Assembly: GCA_963756875.1 (NCBI GenBank)
Contig: CAVWPA010000003.1
Span: 640,001-704,000 of the forward strand
Source: an uncultured Verrucomicrobiae bacterium
Lineage (GTDB): Bacteria; Verrucomicrobiota; Verrucomicrobiia; Chthoniobacterales; UBA10450
Reading direction: 5' to 3'
Length of the DNA: 64,000 nucleotides
Numbering within the stretch: position 1 is the first letter of the stretch; the number at the start of each line of letters is the position of its first letter. A program made the position numbers and the translations under genes. This document shows, one piece after another, positions 8,864 through 64,000 of the stretch. The notes under the pieces are model-generated. The model did not search any database, was not told the origin of the DNA, and was given only the letters and a program-made list of their open reading frames with translations.

Positions 8864-9009
8864 TGGGGAGCGCACGCGCCTCGCGTGCTCTTTCCGACGC
8901 CTCGCCGGAAAGCTTGGCCCGAACGCCGAAAACGAGATTGATCCGTCCCCGACAAAGTTCGCGATCGCGAGGGCGCGATCGCCGGCACGCGAGGCGCGTG
9001 CGCTCCCCA
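8864..9009. repeat. Palindromic MITE/REP-like element, family A, between nuoJ and nuoK
   Basis: Perfect 25-bp terminal inverted repeat TGGGGAGCGCACGCGCCTCGCGTGC; related copies at 32235, 61839, 63162. Confidence 0.92.
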
Positions 9010-24307: not shown

Positions 24308-24362
24308 TGGAGGGATACGCGCTGTCGTGTCCCAAATATTTGGGCGCCGATGGCGCCCTCCA
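24308..24362. repeat. Palindromic element family D (TGGAGGG...CCCTCCA) between convergent purC and mdh
   Basis: Left arm 25/27 identical to the uvrA-internal copy at 60024. Confidence 0.85.
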
Positions 24363-29837: not shown

Positions 29838-29899
29838 CCTGTAGAGGCAGCCGTGTCGGCTGCGTTGCTTTTTGCAGGCGACACGGCTGCCTCTACAGG
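29838..29899. repeat. Palindromic element family B, intergenic
   Basis: CCTGTAGAGGCAGCCGTGTCG...CGACACGGCTGCCTCTACAGG, 21-bp perfect inverted repeat. Confidence 0.92.
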
Positions 29900-29949: not shown

Positions 29950-32401
29950 CTACCGCACCGTAACCGTGCACGTGCCGGCGCGGCCGCGATCGTCCAGCGC
30001 GGTCAATTCGTAATCGCCCGGCGTCGCTTTCCATGAAAGCACTTCACGCGGCTCCGCTTTCCCGATGAACGTCTTGTCTGCGAACCAATAAACCTCGCGC
30101 ACACCCGGATCCACGCCGGCTCGCAAAGGAATCGATTCTGCCGATGCCAGCAGAATCCTGCTGCCGTTGTCCGGCGACGTGATCCGTGGCGCGCTGCCAC
30201 CGAGCGAAACGACTGATGTCCCGGGAAGAAACGGCGGGGGCGATTTTCTCGGCATTCCCGCTTTCTCGAAAAGAGCGCGCAGATCATCCGGCCAAAATTC
30301 GTAAACTTCGTGACGCACCGGACGCGTTCCATCGTCGTTTGGCAAACGCAGCCCGGTTGCCGCATCGACGATTATGTCACGGTGCACGTCGCAAATTTTT
30401 ATCGGTGAAACTCCGGGAATGAACCAACCTTCGACACGGTCCGGGCAGTTCGGTCCAGGCAGGTCGCCGGACACGGCGCAAAATTCGACGCGCTTTAGAT
30501 TTGCGCCGGGCGGCGGAAGATGCGGCTGAGCGGGCTCGGGCCAGGTCGTTCGCAGGCTGTCGATGATTTGAAACAAGAGCGGCCCGGCAGCACTGCGTCC
30601 GACAAATGCCGGGTTCGGGCGTCCGTCAAAATTGCCAATCCAGACGCCGAGCACGTAGTGATCGAAAATCGCAATCGACCAGGCGTCATGAAACCCGCAC
30701 GACGTTCCCGTTTTCCAATAAACCGGCTGCCCGCCGGCGTCCACGCAGTTGGTCCCCGGGCGCGGGACGTTGCCGAGCATTTCGAGCGTTAGAAACGAAG
30801 TTTCAGGCGAAAGAACGCGCCGGCCCTTGGCGAGAATCGGATCGGTTGAAGTGTGGCGCAGCGGGCGCAGCTCGCCGTTATTTGCGAGCGCGGCATACAA
30901 CCGCACCAGATCCTGCATCGACACCTCCGCGTCGCCGAGCGGCAGGGCCAGTCCGTAGAACGATTCCGGATGCGGCAAGGGTGCGCCCGCGCCCTTGAGG
31001 AATTGATAGAGGGTGGGGTGCGACAGTTCCGATGCCAGCTCGACTGCCGGAACATTTCTACTGCGAGCCAACGCATCGCTGGCGCGAATCGGTCCGACAA
31101 ATCCGCGATCGAAGTTTTCCGGATTGTACCCTCCGAAATTGCGCGGCGCATCCGTGAGGATCGACAACGGATGAATCAATCCCTGCTCCATCGCCAGCGC
31201 ATAAACGAAAGGCTTCAGTGTCGATCCGGGCGAACGTGGACTGCGCGTGCCATCGACCTGGCCGTTGATCTCGACGCTGCTGAAATCGGCCGATCCGACC
31301 TGAGCAAGCACGTCCATTGTGCGCGTATCGATTAGTAGCGCTGCGGCATTTTGAATTCCGCGATTCCGATTTGTCGCCACGTAATCCGCCACTCGTCGCT
31401 CGATGAGCCGCTCTTTTTCCAGGTCGAGCGTGGTCACGATTTGATCGCGCCCCTTCGCGTTCTCCAGGACCTGCTGCACGAAATGTGGAGCAAGAAATCT
31501 TTGGCGAGCCTGCACGCGCGCACGGAATTCTCTGGGAGAAAACTGCGCGTTGTCGTCAATCCCGGTTCGGTCGTACCAGTTATTTTGCGCAGCGTCCACC
31601 GAGCGATTATTGCGGCCGGCGAACAACGCGCGCCGCGCCGGGCTCTGCGGAATGACGCTCAACGCCACCGATTCCAGTCCGGTCAATCGCGCAGCCGGCT
31701 TGTCGAAATAAATCTGGCTGGCTGCGCCGATGCCTTCGATGTTTCGGCCATACGGCGCGAGATTGAGATACGCCTCGAGAATTTGGGCCTTCGAATAATG
31801 CCGTTCCAGTTCGAGTGCGCGAACAATTTGATTCAGTTTGCCGGTCATTGTTCGCGTCTGTAGATGAAAACGCAGCCGCGCGAGTTGCATCGTGATGGTC
31901 GATCCGCCGCTGCAGATGCGATGAAAGCGCACGAGATCGAGCAGCGACCGGCCGAGCGCGACCGGATTTACGCCGGGATGACGTTCATAATATTTATCTT
32001 CGGTACTGCAACGTCGCGTCGATCAGTTCCGGCGAAATGTCGCGCAACGGCGTCCAGACGCGGAATTTTTGATCGGCGCTCAGCGTCACGCGCAGCAATT
32101 TGCCGCTGCGGTCGCGCACGCTTTGTGAAAACGAAATTCCGTCGAGCAAGGGCGGCCTGGGGAGCGCGAGCCAAATTGCGGCAACGAATGTGGAGAGAAA
32201 CACGAACGCGCGAAGGGTCTTCGCGATCCATTCCGGGGAGCGCACGCGCCTCGCGTGCCGTGTTCGGCGCCCTCGCCGAACATGCTGGAACGCATCACGC
32301 CACAGGTTTTTGATGAGTAAAGAGGCCGCTGGCGGGGGCGCCGGCGGCAGCACGCGAGGGCGCGTGCGGTCCCCAAACAGTGCTCGCGCGACGATATTCA
32401 T
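29950..32401 (-). CDS. pbpC: Penicillin-binding protein 1C (apparent +1 frameshift at about 32002)
   Basis: EDKYY..HPGVNP, SGGSTITMQLAR, GSTLKPF, SRN, KTGTS; ATG overlaps the alpha-2-macroglobulin stop. Confidence 0.92.
32235..32374. repeat. Family A element in the 5' coding region of pbpC
   Basis: GGGGAGCGCACGCGCCTCGCGTGC...GCACGCGAGGGCGCGTGCGGTCCCC. Confidence 0.9.
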
Positions 32402-59171: not shown

Positions 59172-62100
59172 TCACTCCGTTCGGAATGACAGGACGTCTC
59201 GCAAAAACGGCGCGGTCCGGCTTATTCGGTTCTTCGCGACTTCCTCCGGTGTACCAAACGCCACAACCTCGCCGCCCTCAGCGCCCGCTTCCGGTCCCAG
59301 ATCGACGATGTAATCGGCTTCCGCAATCACGCTCAGGTTGTGCTCGATCACGATCACGGTATTGCCCTCGTCGACCAGTCGATGCAAAACCTTGAGCAGA
59401 AGGTCGACATCGGCCATGTGCAGGCCAATGGTCGGCTCTTCGAGCAAATACAACGTCGATCCCGGCTTGCGCATTTTACGGATGCGCTCGTTTTCCGCGC
59501 GGCCGACGCCGCGCTTGAGCTGCGTGACGAGCTTGAGCCGTTGCGCTTCGCCGCCGCTTAAGGTCGGACTCGGCTGGCCAAGTTTCAGATAGCCGAGCCC
59601 CGTATCGGCAAGCAACAAAAGAGGTCGCGCAATTTTCGGGTGCGCGGAGAAAAATCCAGCCGCTTCTTCGATCGTCATCTCCATCACATTGCCGATCGAT
59701 TTTTCGTTATAGAGAACTTCGAGCGTCTGCGGGTTGTAACGTTTTCCCCCGCAATCCTCACACGGCACCAGGGCGCTCGGGAGAAAATTCATCTCCAGTT
59801 TGATCACTCCCTGGCCTCTGCAGGTTTCGCAGCGTCCACCTTCCGCGTTAAAGGAAAAGCGGCTCGCTGAATAGCCGCGCACGCGTGCAACGGGCAGTTG
59901 CGCGTAAAGATCCCGGATCTCATCGAGGACCTTGATATACGTGCCGGGAGTTGAGCGCGAAGTCTTGCCGATGGGCGCCTGGTCGACTTCGTATACCGCC
60001 TCGATCTGATCCGTGCCGCTGACTGGAGGGACACGCTCTGTCGTGTCCCACTTTAGTTTCATTTGCTTGGACGCGACGGAGCGCGTCCCTCCATGCTCCA
60101 ATTGCTCGCGCACCGCAGGCAGCAGCACGTCGTGCATCAGAGTCGATTTGCCCGAGCCGGAAATGCCGGTGATAACCGACAGGCGGCCAATGGGGAATCG
60201 AACATCGACATCTTTTAAATTATTAACGCGCGCGCCGTGGATCTGGATCCAATGTTCCACATCGCCTAACGAACGACGCGACTTGCGAGTGGGATGACAA
60301 AGTGGCGTCTTCAGGCAACGCCCTGTTTCGGAGTCCGCGTTCTGTTTGATATCCTGGAACGTCCCGGTCGCCACGACTTCGCCACCGTGGATCCCGGCGC
60401 GCGGGCCGAGATCGATAATGTGATCCGCGCGCCGCATTGTCTCTTCGTCGTGCTCGACAATAACGAGTGAGTTTCCTTTTTCGCGCAGCGCCGTCAGCGT
60501 GTCGAGCAATCGCAAATTATCGCGAGGATGCAGACCGATGGTGGGCTCATCGAGCACGTAAAGAACCCCGCGCAAATTCGAACCGAGCTGCGCGGCAAGG
60601 CGGATCCGCTGCGATTCGCCGCCGCTCAATGTTTTTGCAGACCGGCCGAGCGGTAGATAACCGAGCCCGACATTTTCCATGAAATGCAATCGTTGTTGAA
60701 TCTCGGGGACCAGGTCCGCCGCGATTGTCTGGTGCGTTCCGCGGAAACGCAGCTTGTTAATCAACTGTGCGGCTTCGGCTGCGGAAAGACTTGTGAATTG
60801 ATCGATCGCGTAGTCCTGCACGCGGACGTGGCGGGCGACCGAATTCAATCGCGAGCCGTGGCAACTCGGACATTCGCGCGCCTCGCCTTCCTCGATCCAT
60901 TCCGATTCGCGCTCCGCCGCGAGCTCATTTTCCAGGTACCGACTCGCCGTCGTCGCTCTGCCCGGTTTGTAAATCCTGGTTCCAGATTTCGCCGAACCCA
61001 CCGCACTCTTCGCATGCGCCGTGCGGCGAGTTGAATGAGAACAATCGCGGATCGAGCTCTTCAAACGCGCGGCCGCACCCCGGGCAGCTCATTTCGGTGC
61101 TCATCACGGCCAGCCGATTTTTGGAATCGAGCAGATGCGCCGTGCCGCGGCCGATCTCAAGCGCGCGCTGGACGAGATTGCGCGCCTTTAAAATTCGCTT
61201 TGCATCGATCGATCCCACGACCACGTCGATGGTGTGTTCCTTGAACCGCTCGAGTTTTCGGAAATCGTCGATCGCAATCAGTTTGCCATCCACAAAAAGC
61301 GTTTCGAATCCCTGTCGCTCCGCCCAGCGCGCGACGTCGGTATGGAACCCTTTCCGGGCTTTGACCAGCGGCGCGAGCACCTTGAGCGGGCCGCGTCTTG
61401 CCGCGGCTTCGAGCTGTTTTACAATCGCGGCCGCGCTCTGTTTTTCGACCGGCAGATCGCAATCCGGACAAAACTGCGTTCCGGTTTTCGCAAAGAGCAG
61501 ACGCAGGAAGTGATACACTTCTGTCACGGTCGCCACCGTCGATTTCCCGCCGCCGCGCGTGACCCGTTGCTCGATGGCGACACTGGGCGGGAGACCTGCG
61601 ACCAGATCGACATCGGGCTTTTCAAGCTGCTCAACGAACTGCCGCGCGTAAGGCGACATGCTGTCGAGAAAACGCCGCTGGCCTTCCGCGAAAAGAATAT
61701 CAAATGCGAGCGTCGATTTTCCCGAGCCGCTCAAGCCGGTGATCACGACCATCTGGTCGCGCGGAATTTTCACGTCGATGTTTTTGAGATTGTGCTCGCG
61801 CGCACCGCGAATCTCGATCACGCCATTTGCTCTTGGATTGGTGAGCGCACGCGCCTCGCGTGCTCCGCTCGACGCCCCGCCGGGGGGCTCTTCGGCTGCA
61901 CGCAAATAGATGTCGTCTTCTTCGTCTTCGCTCGTGTACTTCGCGCGGGTTCGGAAAGTTTCCGGCGAGGCGCCGGAAGTCCGAGCCGGACTGGCGTTAG
62001 CACGCGAGGCGCGTGCGCTCCCCAGAATTGCCCGCAGAAATCTTCCGGTGTGCGATTCCTCGATCTTCGCGATTTGTTCCGGCGTTCCGGATGCGACCAC

Positions 62101-64000
62101 TTCGCCGCCTTCGTCGCCGGCCTCCGGGCCGAGATCGACGATGTAATCGGCGCATTTAATCACCTCGAGATTGTGTTCGATGACCACAATGGAATGACCG
62201 CGATCGACCAGCCGTTGAAAAAGATGCAACAGGATCGCGACGTCATCGAAATGCAATCCAGTGGTCGGCTCGTCGAATATGAAAAGGCTTCCAATTGGCG
62301 ATCTTCCTGTAGTGGCAGCCGTGCCGGCTGCGCCATTGTGACTTGCAGGCGACACGCCTGCCGCTACAGATTTTTCCGCAAGATGGCGCACTAATTTCAG
62401 GCGTTGCGATTCGCCGCCGGAAAGCGTGTTGAGCGGCTGGCCCAGCCGTAAATAGCCGAGTCCCACCTCCTCAAGCACGGCGAGTGGAGTTGACAATGCT
62501 TTCTTCTCGCCGATCTGCGCGAAGAAACGGATCGCTTCGCTTACCGTCATTTCGAGCAGATCGTGGATCGATTTGCCGTGAAGCTGGATTTTTAGCACGT
62601 GAGACTGAAAACGGCGGCCTTCGCATTCGGCACAACGTACGTAGAGATCGCTGAGAAATTGCATCTCGATTTTTTCGAAACCGGTGCCGGAGCAGCGCTC
62701 GCAACGTCCGCTGCCGGAATTGAACGAGAACGCGCTCGCCGTCAGGCCCTGCGACATCGCTTCCGGCTGCGCGGCGAACAGTTCGCGCACCCGATCATAC
62801 AAACCAAGATACAAAACCGGAGTGGAACGCGGCGTGCGCGCAAGTGGGGATTGATCGACCATCACCACTTCGTTGATGCGATGTGCGCCGGTGACGCTTT
62901 TGCAGGCGCCCGGTTCCTGATCCAGCGATTGACCCTTCGCGCGCAAAAGGTTCCGGTAAAGAACCTCGTGAACCAGCGTCGATTTGCCGGAACCGGAAAC
63001 GCCGGTTACGCATGTAAAATTTTTGAGAGGGAGATCGACATCGATCTTTTTCAGATTGTGCTCACGCGCGCCGCTGATTCGGATTGATGTCGTCGATTTC
63101 CGTCTCCGTTTCGGGACCGGAATCGATTTGCGGCCGGAGAGGTAATCGAACGTGAGGGATTGGGGAGCGCACGCGCCCCGCGTGCTGGCGATCGCGCCCT
63201 CGCGATCGCGAACTTTTTTCGATTGCGCAGCCTTGGGAGTCGTTACGTCTGAGGCATTTCGGCGAGGGCGCCGAAACGTGCACGCGAGGGCGCGTGCGCT
63301 CCCCGGATTTCCGTTATCGCGCGCAAGGAAATCGTTCAGCGGTCCGCTCCAAACCAGTTCGCCGCCCAGCTCGCCGCGGCCGGGCCCGAGGTCGATTAAA
63401 TTATCGGCGGCGCGGATGATTTGCTCTTCGTGTTCGACTACGAGCAACGTGTTGCCTTTATCGCGAAGATTGTGCATGACGCGGACGAGCCGGCCGACAT
63501 CGCGCGGGTGCAAGCCGACGCTCGGTTCGTCCATGACGAAAAGCGTGTTCACCAGCGAAGTGCCGAGACACGTCGTCAGATTTACGCGCTGCACTTCGCC
63601 GCCGCTCAATGTGCGCGTCGAACGATCGAGCGTCAGGTAACCGACGCCGACTTCGCATAAATAATTCAGACGCGCGCAAATCTCTCCGCGCAACATCTCT
63701 GTTGTGGAATCGTTAGGCGGAATTTCGATTCCCGACAGAAGATTGCGCGCCTCGGAAATGGAAAGCGCGGCGAATTCGGGAAGAGTGAACTGTAGCGGCG
63801 CTCTATGAGCGTCGCTTGAATTCATCCGACGGTCATAGACCGCCGCTACAGAAGAAATCTTATGATTGAGCGTTTCGGGCTGGAAGCGCGTGCCGTGGCA
63901 CTTCGGGCAGGTGGTGTATGCGCGATACCGGCTGAGCAAAACGCGCACATGCATTTTGTAAGTTTTGCTCTCGAGCCAGCGGAAAAATCCGCGCACGCCA
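59172..64000 (-). CDS. uvrA: Excinuclease ABC subunit A, tandem double-length form (5' end outside window; apparent +1 frameshift at about 60935)
   Basis: Four LSGGE signatures and three Walker A motifs ([24 protein letters not shown]) plus CxxC zinc modules in one chain once the frameshift is repaired. Confidence 0.95.
60024..60093. repeat. Family D element in frame in uvrA
   Basis: TGGAGGGACACGCTCTGTCGTGTCC...GGACGCGACGGAGCGCGTCCCTCCA; encodes [23 protein letters not shown]. Confidence 0.88.
61839..62024. repeat. Family A element in frame at the junction of the two UvrA halves
   Basis: TGGTGAGCGCACGCGCCTCGCGTGC...GCACGCGAGGCGCGTGCGCTCCCCA. Confidence 0.88.
62307..62369. repeat. Family B element in frame in uvrA
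   Basis: CTGTAGTGGCAGCCGTGCCGGCTGC...GCAGGCGACACGCCTGCCGCTACAG; encodes [20 protein letters not shown]. Confidence 0.9.
63162..63304. repeat. Family A element in frame in uvrA
   Basis: GGGGAGCGCACGCGCCCCGCGTGC...GCACGCGAGGGCGCGTGCGCTCCCC; inner segment matches the 8864 copy in reverse orientation. Confidence 0.92.
63790..63851. repeat. GTAG-type family C element in frame in uvrA
   Basis: CTGTAGCGGCGCTCTATGAGCGTCG...CGACGGTCATAGACCGCCGCTACAG; encodes [20 protein letters not shown]. Confidence 0.88.

What the first reader, a model, noticed from the sequence alone, without database searches (positions are those of the whole stretch)
59172..64000. UvrA carries five in-frame palindromic DNA elements from four different repeat families
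Seen: five DNA hairpin elements lie inside the open uvrA frame (63790-63851, 63162-63304, 62307-62369, 61839-62024, 60024-60093). Three of the four families have intergenic twins in this window: A at 8864, B at 29838, D at 24308 (25/27 arm identity). Each adds a 20-60 aa peptide between conserved UvrA blocks, e.g. between QRLKLVRHL and [12 protein letters not shown]. Known: Rickettsia palindromic elements insert in frame into proteins, and REPs are normally extragenic. Inference: several unrelated families are colonising loops of one core repair enzyme and creating new protein sequence. I do not know of a description of this for Verrucomicrobiota.
Basis: partly seen in the sequence, partly recalled or inferred. 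Interest (0 to 1): 0.88.

Follow-up and report, generated by a model that had tools for sequence, protein, structure and literature searches.

The report
Mobile REP hairpins inside double uvrA
A DNA-repair gene of a soil verrucomicrobium carries six small mobile hairpin repeats that appear to be read through as extra protein loops; this is already described in a related bacterium, but here the transposase linked to such repeats also sits in frame inside essential genes.

Summary
All five elements are strong inverted repeats at the stated coordinates. They belong to four multi-copy families (about 21 to 91 arms each genome-wide). A sixth element lies just past the window end.

They are REP/REPIN elements: a GTAG or GGAG head plus a hairpin, paired head-outward. 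[quoted passage not shown]

The host gene is a fused double UvrA of about 2,090 aa, conserved as one ORF in 17 of 20 relatives examined. It is under strong purifying selection (dN/dS 0.05-0.15). Inserts sit in linkers and loops and are lacking or shorter in most other families of the order.

The single frameshift in the assembly is missing from an independent short-read contig.

Novelty is low. Di Nocera et al. 2013 reported intragenic GTAG REPs in Opitutus terrae (Verrucomicrobia), including its 1,995-aa uvrA, and noted a bias towards repair genes.

New here:
- six elements from four families in one gene;
- repeated occupation of the same loops across genera;
- whole REP-RAYT-REP units lying in frame inside metH (this genome) and inside recG, alaS, thrS and carB (relatives). 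I found no description of this in the literature I searched.

The parts
60925..64000 (-). Upstream open frame of the fused double-UvrA gene. The stop-to-stop ORF is 1488 aa and continues beyond the window end to G000:C3:705391. It covers the first UvrA module, the linker, and the N-terminal part of the second module.
   Evidence: NCBIfam NF001503 UvrA 1288 bits; PDB UvrA chains at E about 1e-233
59172..61064 (-). Downstream open frame (630 aa from the first start codon) holding the rest of the second UvrA module.
   Evidence: NF001503 743 bits, profile positions 386-941
60935..60936 (-). Frameshift site. One C too many relative to the frame kept by 17 orthologues. An independent 151-nt short-read contig lacks this base.
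   Evidence: alignment block FS; table 4, place 60935; record 12 of run X2 with 0 other letters
63790..63851 (.). E1: family A REP doublet, GTAG heads outward, 62 nt. It lies after the zinc-finger CxxC of module 1. G015 carries a near-identical copy at the same site (58 of 66 nt).
63162..63304 (.). E2: family B REP doublet, GGAG heads, 143 nt. It lies in the connector between the two ATPase halves of module 1. B-type elements occupy the same site in G016, G001 and G012.
62307..62369 (.). E3: family C REP doublet, 63 nt. It lies between the ABC signature motif and Walker B of the second ATPase domain of module 1. 27 residues stand where T. maritima UvrA has 4.
61839..62024 (.). E4: family B REP doublet, 186 nt with 26-nt arms 96% complementary. 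It lies in the linker between the two UvrA modules.
   Evidence: an independent 181-nt contig covers 61848-62028 (record 5)
60024..60093 (.). E5: family D REP doublet, 70 nt. It lies in the loop after the Walker A helix of the second ATPase domain of module 2. G001 has a B-type doublet at this site.
8865..9008 (.). Twin: family B doublet elsewhere in the window.
29839..29898 (.). Twin: family C doublet elsewhere in the window.
24308..24332 (+). Twin: single family D arm. It lies in a 471-aa ORF with no Pfam match.
32235..32259 (+). Single family B arm.

Best explanation
The elements are REP doublets (REPINs): non-autonomous mobile hairpins of the kind thought to be mobilised by REP-associated tyrosine transposases (RAYTs).

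The genome holds at least four REP classes and six RAYT genes. Most copies lie between genes. Copies that landed inside genes persist only where they keep the frame, contain no stop codon and sit in a tolerant loop or linker. There they are translated as Gly/Ser/Ala/Arg/Pro-rich peptides.

The fused double UvrA is long, modular and rich in such loops, and it has accumulated six of them. The same loops are occupied by the same or other REP classes in related genera. This points to old insertions that are kept similar to the family consensus, to repeated insertion at permissive sites, or to both.

Shown: repeat identity and copy number, the RAYT link, in-frame position, lack or shortness in most other families of the order, and purifying selection on the gene. 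Inferred: transposition by RAYT, translation of the inserts, and their near-neutral effect.
For: REP architecture and copy numbers.

All 55 doublets are head-outward.

RAYT link: the RAYT at C3:12137 is flanked by 13 C arms. The RAYTs at C3:1631734 and C2:26294 are flanked by B arms. The RAYT at C3:1385666 has a D arm 191 nt away.

RAYT identity: 4 of 5 tested ORFs exceed the cut-off of NCBIfam NF047646, and the fifth scores 70 of 80 bits. There are 6 Y1_Tnp hits in the genome.

Depletion in ORFs: 27 of 186 clusters lie in ORFs with at least 100 aa on both sides, against 1627 of 3720 random placements.

Orthologues: 17 of 20 fetched are single ORFs of 1842-2080 aa. Inserts are lacking or shorter in most orthologues of the seven other families, and 202 excess residues are summed over the six sites. 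G023, G025 and G029 have comparably long segments at some of these sites.

Selection: dN/dS is 0.05-0.15 against four relatives, on both sides of the frameshift.

Position in connectors of solved UvrA structures.

Same phenomenon in other genes: 14 of 20 other large ORFs that carry REP arms are recognisable genes (MetH, DnaE, SMC, MutS, FtsK, PolB, ThiC and others).

Enrichment: 6 clusters in a 6.2-kb gene against 0.43 expected, Poisson P = 6e-6.

Age of family B: the B element has DNA matches in 17 of 30 relatives.

Precedent: PMC3733652.
Against: - There is no direct evidence that the inserts are translated or that RAYTs move them here. No RNA run was listed.
- No cognate RAYT was found next to family A arms.
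- The assembly shows a frameshift in the gene. Only one low-depth contig (depth 2.1) contradicts it.
- E1 and E5 add only 15 and 9 residues over the outgroup median, so they partly replace older loop sequence.
- Some outgroup orthologues (G023, G025, G029) have loop segments as long as G000's at E1, E3, E4 or E5.
- REP arms at orthologous sites stay near-consensus although synonymous sites of the gene are saturated (dS 1.0-1.4). E1 is 58 of 66 nt identical to G015, and G016 has perfect 26-nt arms at the E2 site. This fits maintenance or selection better than simple neutral passengers.
- No 3D model could be made.
Confidence: 0.85

Rival explanations
1. The gene is a decaying pseudogene that tolerates junk insertions because it is no longer used.
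For: One frameshift in the assembly at 60935/60936. The genome is only 87.6% complete by marker genes.
Against: dN/dS is 0.05-0.15 on both sides of the frameshift. 17 of 20 orthologues are intact single ORFs, several with their own inserts. An independent contig lacks the extra base. All six inserts are stop-free and in frame. The three other broken orthologues come from assemblies of 5-8 contigs. I infer that these may be error-prone assemblies.
Confidence: 0.04
2. The inserts are kept because they are useful, not merely tolerated. They could act as mRNA hairpins that tune stability or translation, or as protein linkers that alter UvrA activity. Di Nocera et al. speculate on mutator effects.
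For: REP arms at orthologous sites remain near consensus while synonymous sites are saturated. The same loops are occupied in several genera. Repair and replication genes are prominent among hosts here and in PMC3733652.
Against: The same loops are short in most other families of the order and in several genera of the same family, so the inserts are dispensable. Different REP classes fill the same loop: D in G000 and B in G001 at the E5 site. Terminator-like sites are not enriched (8 found against 6.3 +/- 2.5 in shuffles) and none falls on a REP on the sense strand. Long multi-domain proteins simply offer more permissive loops.
Confidence: 0.12
3. The elements are assembly or binning artefacts, meaning repeat-induced misjoins.
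For: Repeats attract many partial contig matches with loose ends (table 7).
Against: Orthologues from independent assemblies carry inserts at the same sites. A separate 181-nt contig spans E4 with its flanks (record 5). The reading frame continues through every element.
Confidence: 0.01

Closest known systems
Intragenic GTAG REPs of Opitutus terrae, including its uvrA genes (Di Nocera et al. 2013, BMC Genomics 14:522)
   Same: Same phylum and the same kind of element (GTAG-type REP singles and dimers coding about 7-50 aa). The host gene is of the same type: Oter_2709 is a 1,995-aa 'excinuclease ABC, A subunit'. Several REP families occur in one genome, and replication and repair genes are prominent hosts.
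   Different: There are six elements from four families in one gene, against two per uvrA in O. terrae. The REP-coded peptides listed for O. terrae differ from those seen here, so the REP families are different. Here occupation of the same loops is traced across genera.
Rickettsia palindromic elements (RPE)
   Same: Palindromic repeats inserted in frame into genes that probably remain functional (cited in PMC3733652; further detail recalled).
   Different: Di Nocera et al. place intragenic R. conorii repeats RPE-4 and RPE-6 among CGTC-type repeats, which lack a dedicated transposase. The elements here have GTAG or GGAG heads and cognate RAYTs. No sequence comparison with RPEs was made.
REPIN-RAYT systems of Pseudomonas and E. 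coli (Bertels and Rainey 2011; Nunvar et al. 2010)
   Same: REP doublets in inverted orientation, one RAYT per REP class flanked by its own REPs, and long vertical persistence (abstracts seen).
   Different: Those systems are described as extragenic, with single free-standing RAYT genes. Here many copies are intragenic and one RAYT copy is itself inside a gene.
Inteins (comparison for the in-frame RAYT units only)
   Same: A whole enzyme domain encoded in frame inside conserved, often essential genes. Presence at the same sites is sporadic across relatives.
   Different: No splicing motifs were looked for. The flanks are REP hairpins and the domain is a HUH/Tyr transposase. Removal, if any, would occur at the DNA level.

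Membership tests
REP / REPIN elements | Short imperfect palindrome with a conserved GTAG-like tetranucleotide at one end | tested here: met
   The consensus of each family starts with a GTAG (A, C) or GGAG (B, D) head followed by a 7-9 bp stem. GTAG variants are allowed by PMC3733652.
REP / REPIN elements | Dispersed, high copy number within the genome | tested here: met
   271 arms in 186 clusters across all three contigs. Family D is small, with 21 arms.
REP / REPIN elements | Two REPs in inverted orientation that fold into one long hairpin | tested here: met
   55 of 55 two-arm clusters are +/-. Folds have z-scores of -4.5 to -12.
REP / REPIN elements | Cognate RAYT gene flanked by REPs of the same class | tested here: met
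   Met for B (two RAYT copies) and C (13 flanking arms), and on one side for D. No family A arm lies beside a RAYT (nearest 2.2 kb away), so A is open.
REP / REPIN elements | Predominantly extragenic | tested here: met
   14.5% of clusters lie in ORFs with at least 100-aa flanks, against 44% of random placements.
REP / REPIN elements | Binding, cleavage or mobilisation by the RAYT | not testable with these tools
   Needs biochemistry or population sequencing.
RAYT (REP-associated tyrosine transposase) | HUH motif, catalytic Tyr motif, and a match to the curated model | tested here: met
   NF047646 scores are 85-98 bits (cut-off 80) for 4 of 5 ORFs and 70 bits for the free B copy. His-x-His is kept in 25 of 26 aligned B-type domains and the Tyr in 26 of 26.
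UvrA | Two ABC ATPase modules with zinc fingers, and a match to the curated UvrA models | tested here: met
   NF001503 scores 1288 bits (cut-off 1147) for the upstream frame. PDB UvrA chains match at E about 1e-233.
Long duplicated UvrA (NCBIfam NF001885, 1809 positions) | Score over the curated cut-off of that model | tested here: not met
   685 bits against a cut-off of 3054. The gene has a similar tandem layout but is not a member of that equivalog.
Rickettsia palindromic elements | Sequence relation to RPE families | not tested
   No RPE sequence was compared. The head motif differs from the CGTC type assigned to RPE-4 and RPE-6 in PMC3733652.
Inteins (for in-frame RAYT units) | Splicing blocks at both junctions | not tested
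   The junctions are REP-coded peptides. No intein model was run.

The most novel reading that the evidence does not exclude
In this verrucomicrobial order the B-type RAYT transposase commonly lives as an in-frame passenger inside essential host genes.

Complete REP-RAYT-REP units, with HUH and Tyr motifs intact, are embedded without stop codons in these hosts:
- metH: this genome, G017 at the same site, and G082 at a second site;
- recG: 17 genomes from five families of the order;
- alaS: 11 genomes;
- thrS: 3 genomes;
- carB: 1 genome.

A search of 5.8 billion proteins found 1,544 longer proteins with this domain at E <= 1e-20. Of the best 120, 117 also carry MetH, AlaRS, ThrRS or helicase domains.

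Different RAYT lineages occupy the same host site, which suggests homing-like reinsertion or replacement.

If these units are translated, the transposase borrows the host gene's expression. It cannot be lost by sloppy deletion, which is an intein-like persistence strategy for a DNA transposase.

Five literature searches and passages of three papers found no description. One survey discarded 'unexpectedly long proteins' as fusions or errors (PMC6006769).
Probability: 0.55. Interest if true: 0.8.

Novelty: new member of a known kind. Interest (0 to 1): 0.45.

Why it matters
For the uvrA inserts themselves the finding is a dense further example of a documented oddity. Mobile REP hairpins can be absorbed into proteins as new loop sequence, and repair and replication genes are frequent hosts.

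Comparison across genera adds that the same loops are occupied again and again. It also adds that the repeat arms stay close to consensus while the rest of the gene has diverged to synonymous saturation. This bears on whether REPINs are neutral passengers or actively maintained.

The side result may matter more. Whole RAYT genes sitting in frame inside metH, recG, alaS, thrS and carB would offer a new way for a transposase to persist. It would also give a testable handle on how RAYTs are expressed and kept, a question raised in the REPIN literature I read.

Tried and rejected
- **Expression:** no RNA holder was listed for the stretch. The three runs laid are soil-metagenome contigs with partial cover.
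- **Structure model:** Structure prediction was not accepting jobs, so inserts were not mapped on a model. Alignments to solved UvrA chains were used instead.
- **Rfam:** only one sub-threshold hit over E5, to a miRNA family (27 bits against a gathering score of 92), taken as chance on a hairpin.
- **Internal terminators or promoters:** not enriched over shuffles.
- **Earlier notes of this scan:** nothing found.
- **Is the second B-type RAYT of G000 inside recG?** No. Its neighbouring ORFs have no Pfam match. The G000 recG-like hit is only 36% identical and carries no insert, and G000 alaS carries no insert.
- **Untested ORFs:** 6 of the 20 REP-bearing ORFs tested had no Pfam match. A further 25 smaller candidate ORFs of the 47 were not tested. 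The two uvrA frames were examined separately.
- **N- and C-terminal cases:** the REP arms in the T2SSE and SDF ORFs lie N-terminal to all domain matches and may be upstream of the true start. The arm in DnaX lies C-terminal to all matches.
- **Phylum-wide sample:** only 2 of 200 other genomes hold a B-type RAYT at E <= 1e-25.
Full report
**What is there**

The window is G000:C3:640001-704000 of a 2.69-Mb, three-contig genome. The minus strand from 59172 to beyond the window end encodes one very long UvrA-like protein made of two tandem UvrA modules.

It is split in the assembly into two frames. One is a 1488-aa frame (60925 to C3:705391). The other is a 638-aa frame (59172-61088 stop to stop). 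Both match the curated UvrA models and solved UvrA structures.

The closest named relatives of the C-terminal part are Chthoniobacterales MAGs (Verrucomicrobiota) at 75-83% identity.

**The five elements**

All five inverted repeats are at the stated places (E3 by fold). They fold far better than shuffles, with z-scores of -4.5 to -8.9 and 0 of 200 shuffles as stable.

Fuzzy searches with each arm (at most 4 mismatches) find 69 (A), 91 (B), 90 (C) and 21 (D) copies. These group into 186 clusters: 126 single arms, 55 doublets and 5 arrays. All 55 doublets are head-outward.

E2 and E4 are both family B, so the count of four families is right. The twins in the window are confirmed. A sixth element of family B lies in the same gene just outside the window.

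**What they are**

Each family consensus is a GTAG or GGAG head followed by a short stem-loop. This is the REP architecture, and the doublets are REPINs.

The genome has six Y1-transposase hits. Four of five tested ORFs exceed the cut-off of the NCBIfam model for REP-associated tyrosine transposase, and the fifth scores 70 of 80 bits.

The REP-RAYT link is direct:
- One RAYT is flanked by 13 family C arms.
- Two RAYTs are flanked by family B arms.
- One RAYT has a family D arm 191 nt away.
- No RAYT was found beside family A arms.

REP clusters are depleted in long ORFs: 27 of 186 against 1627 of 3720 random placements with at least 100 aa on both sides.

**Are they insertions into a live gene?**

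All 30 relatives searched have a match (the tally includes the unpublished G002, G007 and G014).

Of 20 orthologous loci fetched, 17 are single ORFs of 1842-2080 aa. The 3 broken ones come from assemblies of 5-8 contigs.

In the alignment of G000 with those 17 orthologues, the sites of the six elements are short in most of the seven orthologues from other families of the order. G023, G025 and G029 have comparably long segments at some sites. G000 has 63, 15, 51, 21, 43 and 9 residues more than their median, 202 in all.

Against solved UvrA chains the elements fall in connectors:
- E2 falls between the two aligned halves of module 1.
- E3 puts 27 residues where T. maritima UvrA has 4, between the signature motif and Walker B.
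- E5 lies in the loop after the Walker A helix.

dN/dS against four relatives is 0.11-0.15 for the upstream frame and 0.05-0.11 for the downstream frame. dS is 1.0-1.4.

**The frameshift**

Orthologues read straight through where G000 has one C too many at 60935/60936.

A 151-nt contig from a soil metagenome run matches 60879-61030 with no other difference and leaves out exactly that base. Its depth is only 2.1, so this is suggestive rather than final.

I read the frameshift as an assembly error or a strain variant.

**History**

Relatives carry their own elements in the same loops:
- G015 has the E1 insert, 58 of 66 nt identical although synonymous sites of the gene are saturated.
- G016 has a B doublet with perfect 26-nt arms at the E2 site.
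- G001 and G012 have B-like inserts at the E2 site.
- G011 has a C-like insert at the E3 site.
- G001 has a B doublet at the E5 site, where G000 has family D.

DNA matches to the B element occur in 17 of 30 relatives: 15 of 18 in the same family and 2 outside it (the tally includes unpublished G007).

So these are old REP families in this bacterial family. The loops are either re-invaded, or their REPs are kept near consensus. Which of the two applies is open.

**Not only uvrA**

Twenty other large ORFs that contain REP arms were scanned. Fourteen are recognisable genes: MetH, DnaE, SMC, MutS, FtsK, PolB, ThiC, a T2SS ATPase, a TPR-sensor cyclase, an AIR-synthase-type enzyme, GGT, an SDF symporter, DnaX and MgsA.

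In eleven of them the arm is flanked by domain matches on both sides. Recurrent REP-coded peptides appear in them.

The uvrA gene still stands out. It holds 6 of 186 clusters in 0.23% of the genome, against 0.43 expected (P = 6e-6). It holds 6 of the 27 clusters with long ORF flanks.

**What is known**

Di Nocera et al. 2013 (PMC3733652; abstract, passages and supplement 3 read) describe GTAG and CGTC REPs across prokaryotes. They report intragenic REPs, with the most GTAG cases in Opitutus terrae (Verrucomicrobia).

They list inserts in both O. terrae uvrA genes, one of which is 1,995 aa long. They note that replication and repair genes are frequent hosts, and they cite the Rickettsia elements as the earlier precedent.

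Quentin et al. 2018 (PMC6006769; passages) also mention in-frame REP insertions.

This is a further, unusually dense member of a known kind.

**The side result**

One of the two B-type RAYT copies of G000 lies inside metH (C2:23186-27811, a 1542-aa open frame). It sits between the homocysteine and pterin domains, in frame, flanked by B arms that match each other in 43 of 46 bases. G017 has the same arrangement at 77% identity.

Searching relatives with this domain showed that it usually sits in long open frames. Pfam scans of 24 such frames found host domains on both sides in all 24:
- RecG: 7
- AlaRS: 11
- ThrRS: 3
- CarB: 1
- MetH: 2

In a sample of 121 genomes of the order, 14 have a stop-free RecG-RAYT-RecG match. 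Many others have an uninterrupted recG.

Eighteen of 20 units have flanking inverted repeats of at least 16 matched bases, up to 53 of 53. Fifteen of them have GGAG or GTAG heads.

His-x-His is kept in 25 of 26 domains and the Tyr motif in 26 of 26. On a tree, RAYTs from the same host site fall in several clades.

In the 5.8-billion-protein collection, 1,544 proteins of 271 aa or more match at E <= 1e-20. Of the best 120, 117 also carry MetH (90), AlaRS (15), ThrRS (9) or helicase (3) domains. Some automatic annotations name both parts.

Five literature searches and passages of PMC3733652, PMC6006769 and PMC5581495 gave no description of this arrangement. Supplements and papers outside the held library could still hold one. 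All of these frames are stop-to-stop translations, and translation has not been shown.

**Verdict**

The best explanation is REPIN insertions tolerated in loops of a conserved double UvrA (confidence 0.85). As a phenomenon it is already known in the same phylum and the same gene type. The in-frame RAYT units are the part worth following up.

Noticed in passing
G000:C2:23186-27811 (locus L039), outside the window: metH is a 1542-aa open frame with a complete B-type RAYT domain (about aa 372-564). The domain is flanked by B REP arms and lies in frame between the homocysteine and pterin-binding domains. A further B arm lies near aa 1181.
   Followed up: yes
Loci L063-L087 (relatives G003, G004, G015, G016, G017, G022, G025, G037, G057, G061, G062, G071, G080, G082, G087, G088, G097, G112, G129, G130): The same RAYT type lies in frame inside recG, alaS, thrS, carB and a second metH site. 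It is mostly flanked by REP-like inverted repeats. RAYTs at one host site belong to several clades.
   Followed up: yes
window 60935-60936: A single extra C breaks the uvrA frame in the assembly. One independent short-read contig lacks it.
   Followed up: partly
G000:C3:704683-704840 (window-equivalent 64683-64840, just outside the window): A sixth REP doublet (family B) in the same gene adds about 63 residues in module 1.
   Followed up: partly
G000:C3:11640-12651 (locus L001): A RAYT gene is bracketed by arrays of 7 and 6 family C REP arms in alternating orientation.
   Followed up: partly
window 63790-63851 against G015 (locus L019): The E1 insert is 58 of 66 nt identical between two genera whose uvrA genes are saturated at synonymous sites (pS 0.34 in the insert against 0.60 gene-wide). 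This hints at maintenance or re-insertion.
   Followed up: partly
table, canonical uvrA paralogues of many relatives and G000:C3:533337-534461: Matches to the single-module uvrA paralogue are flagged with '1 TGA' inside the match in many genomes. I could not tell whether this is an effect of joined alignments or something real.
   Followed up: no
locus L087 (G062 alaS): This in-frame RAYT has lost the second His of the HUH motif, the only one of 26 to do so. It may be an inactive copy.
   Followed up: no
G000:C3:1631542-1632219 (locus L003): The stop-to-stop frame of the free-standing B-type RAYT reads through both flanking REP arms, so REP-coded peptides may also cap the free enzyme.
   Followed up: no
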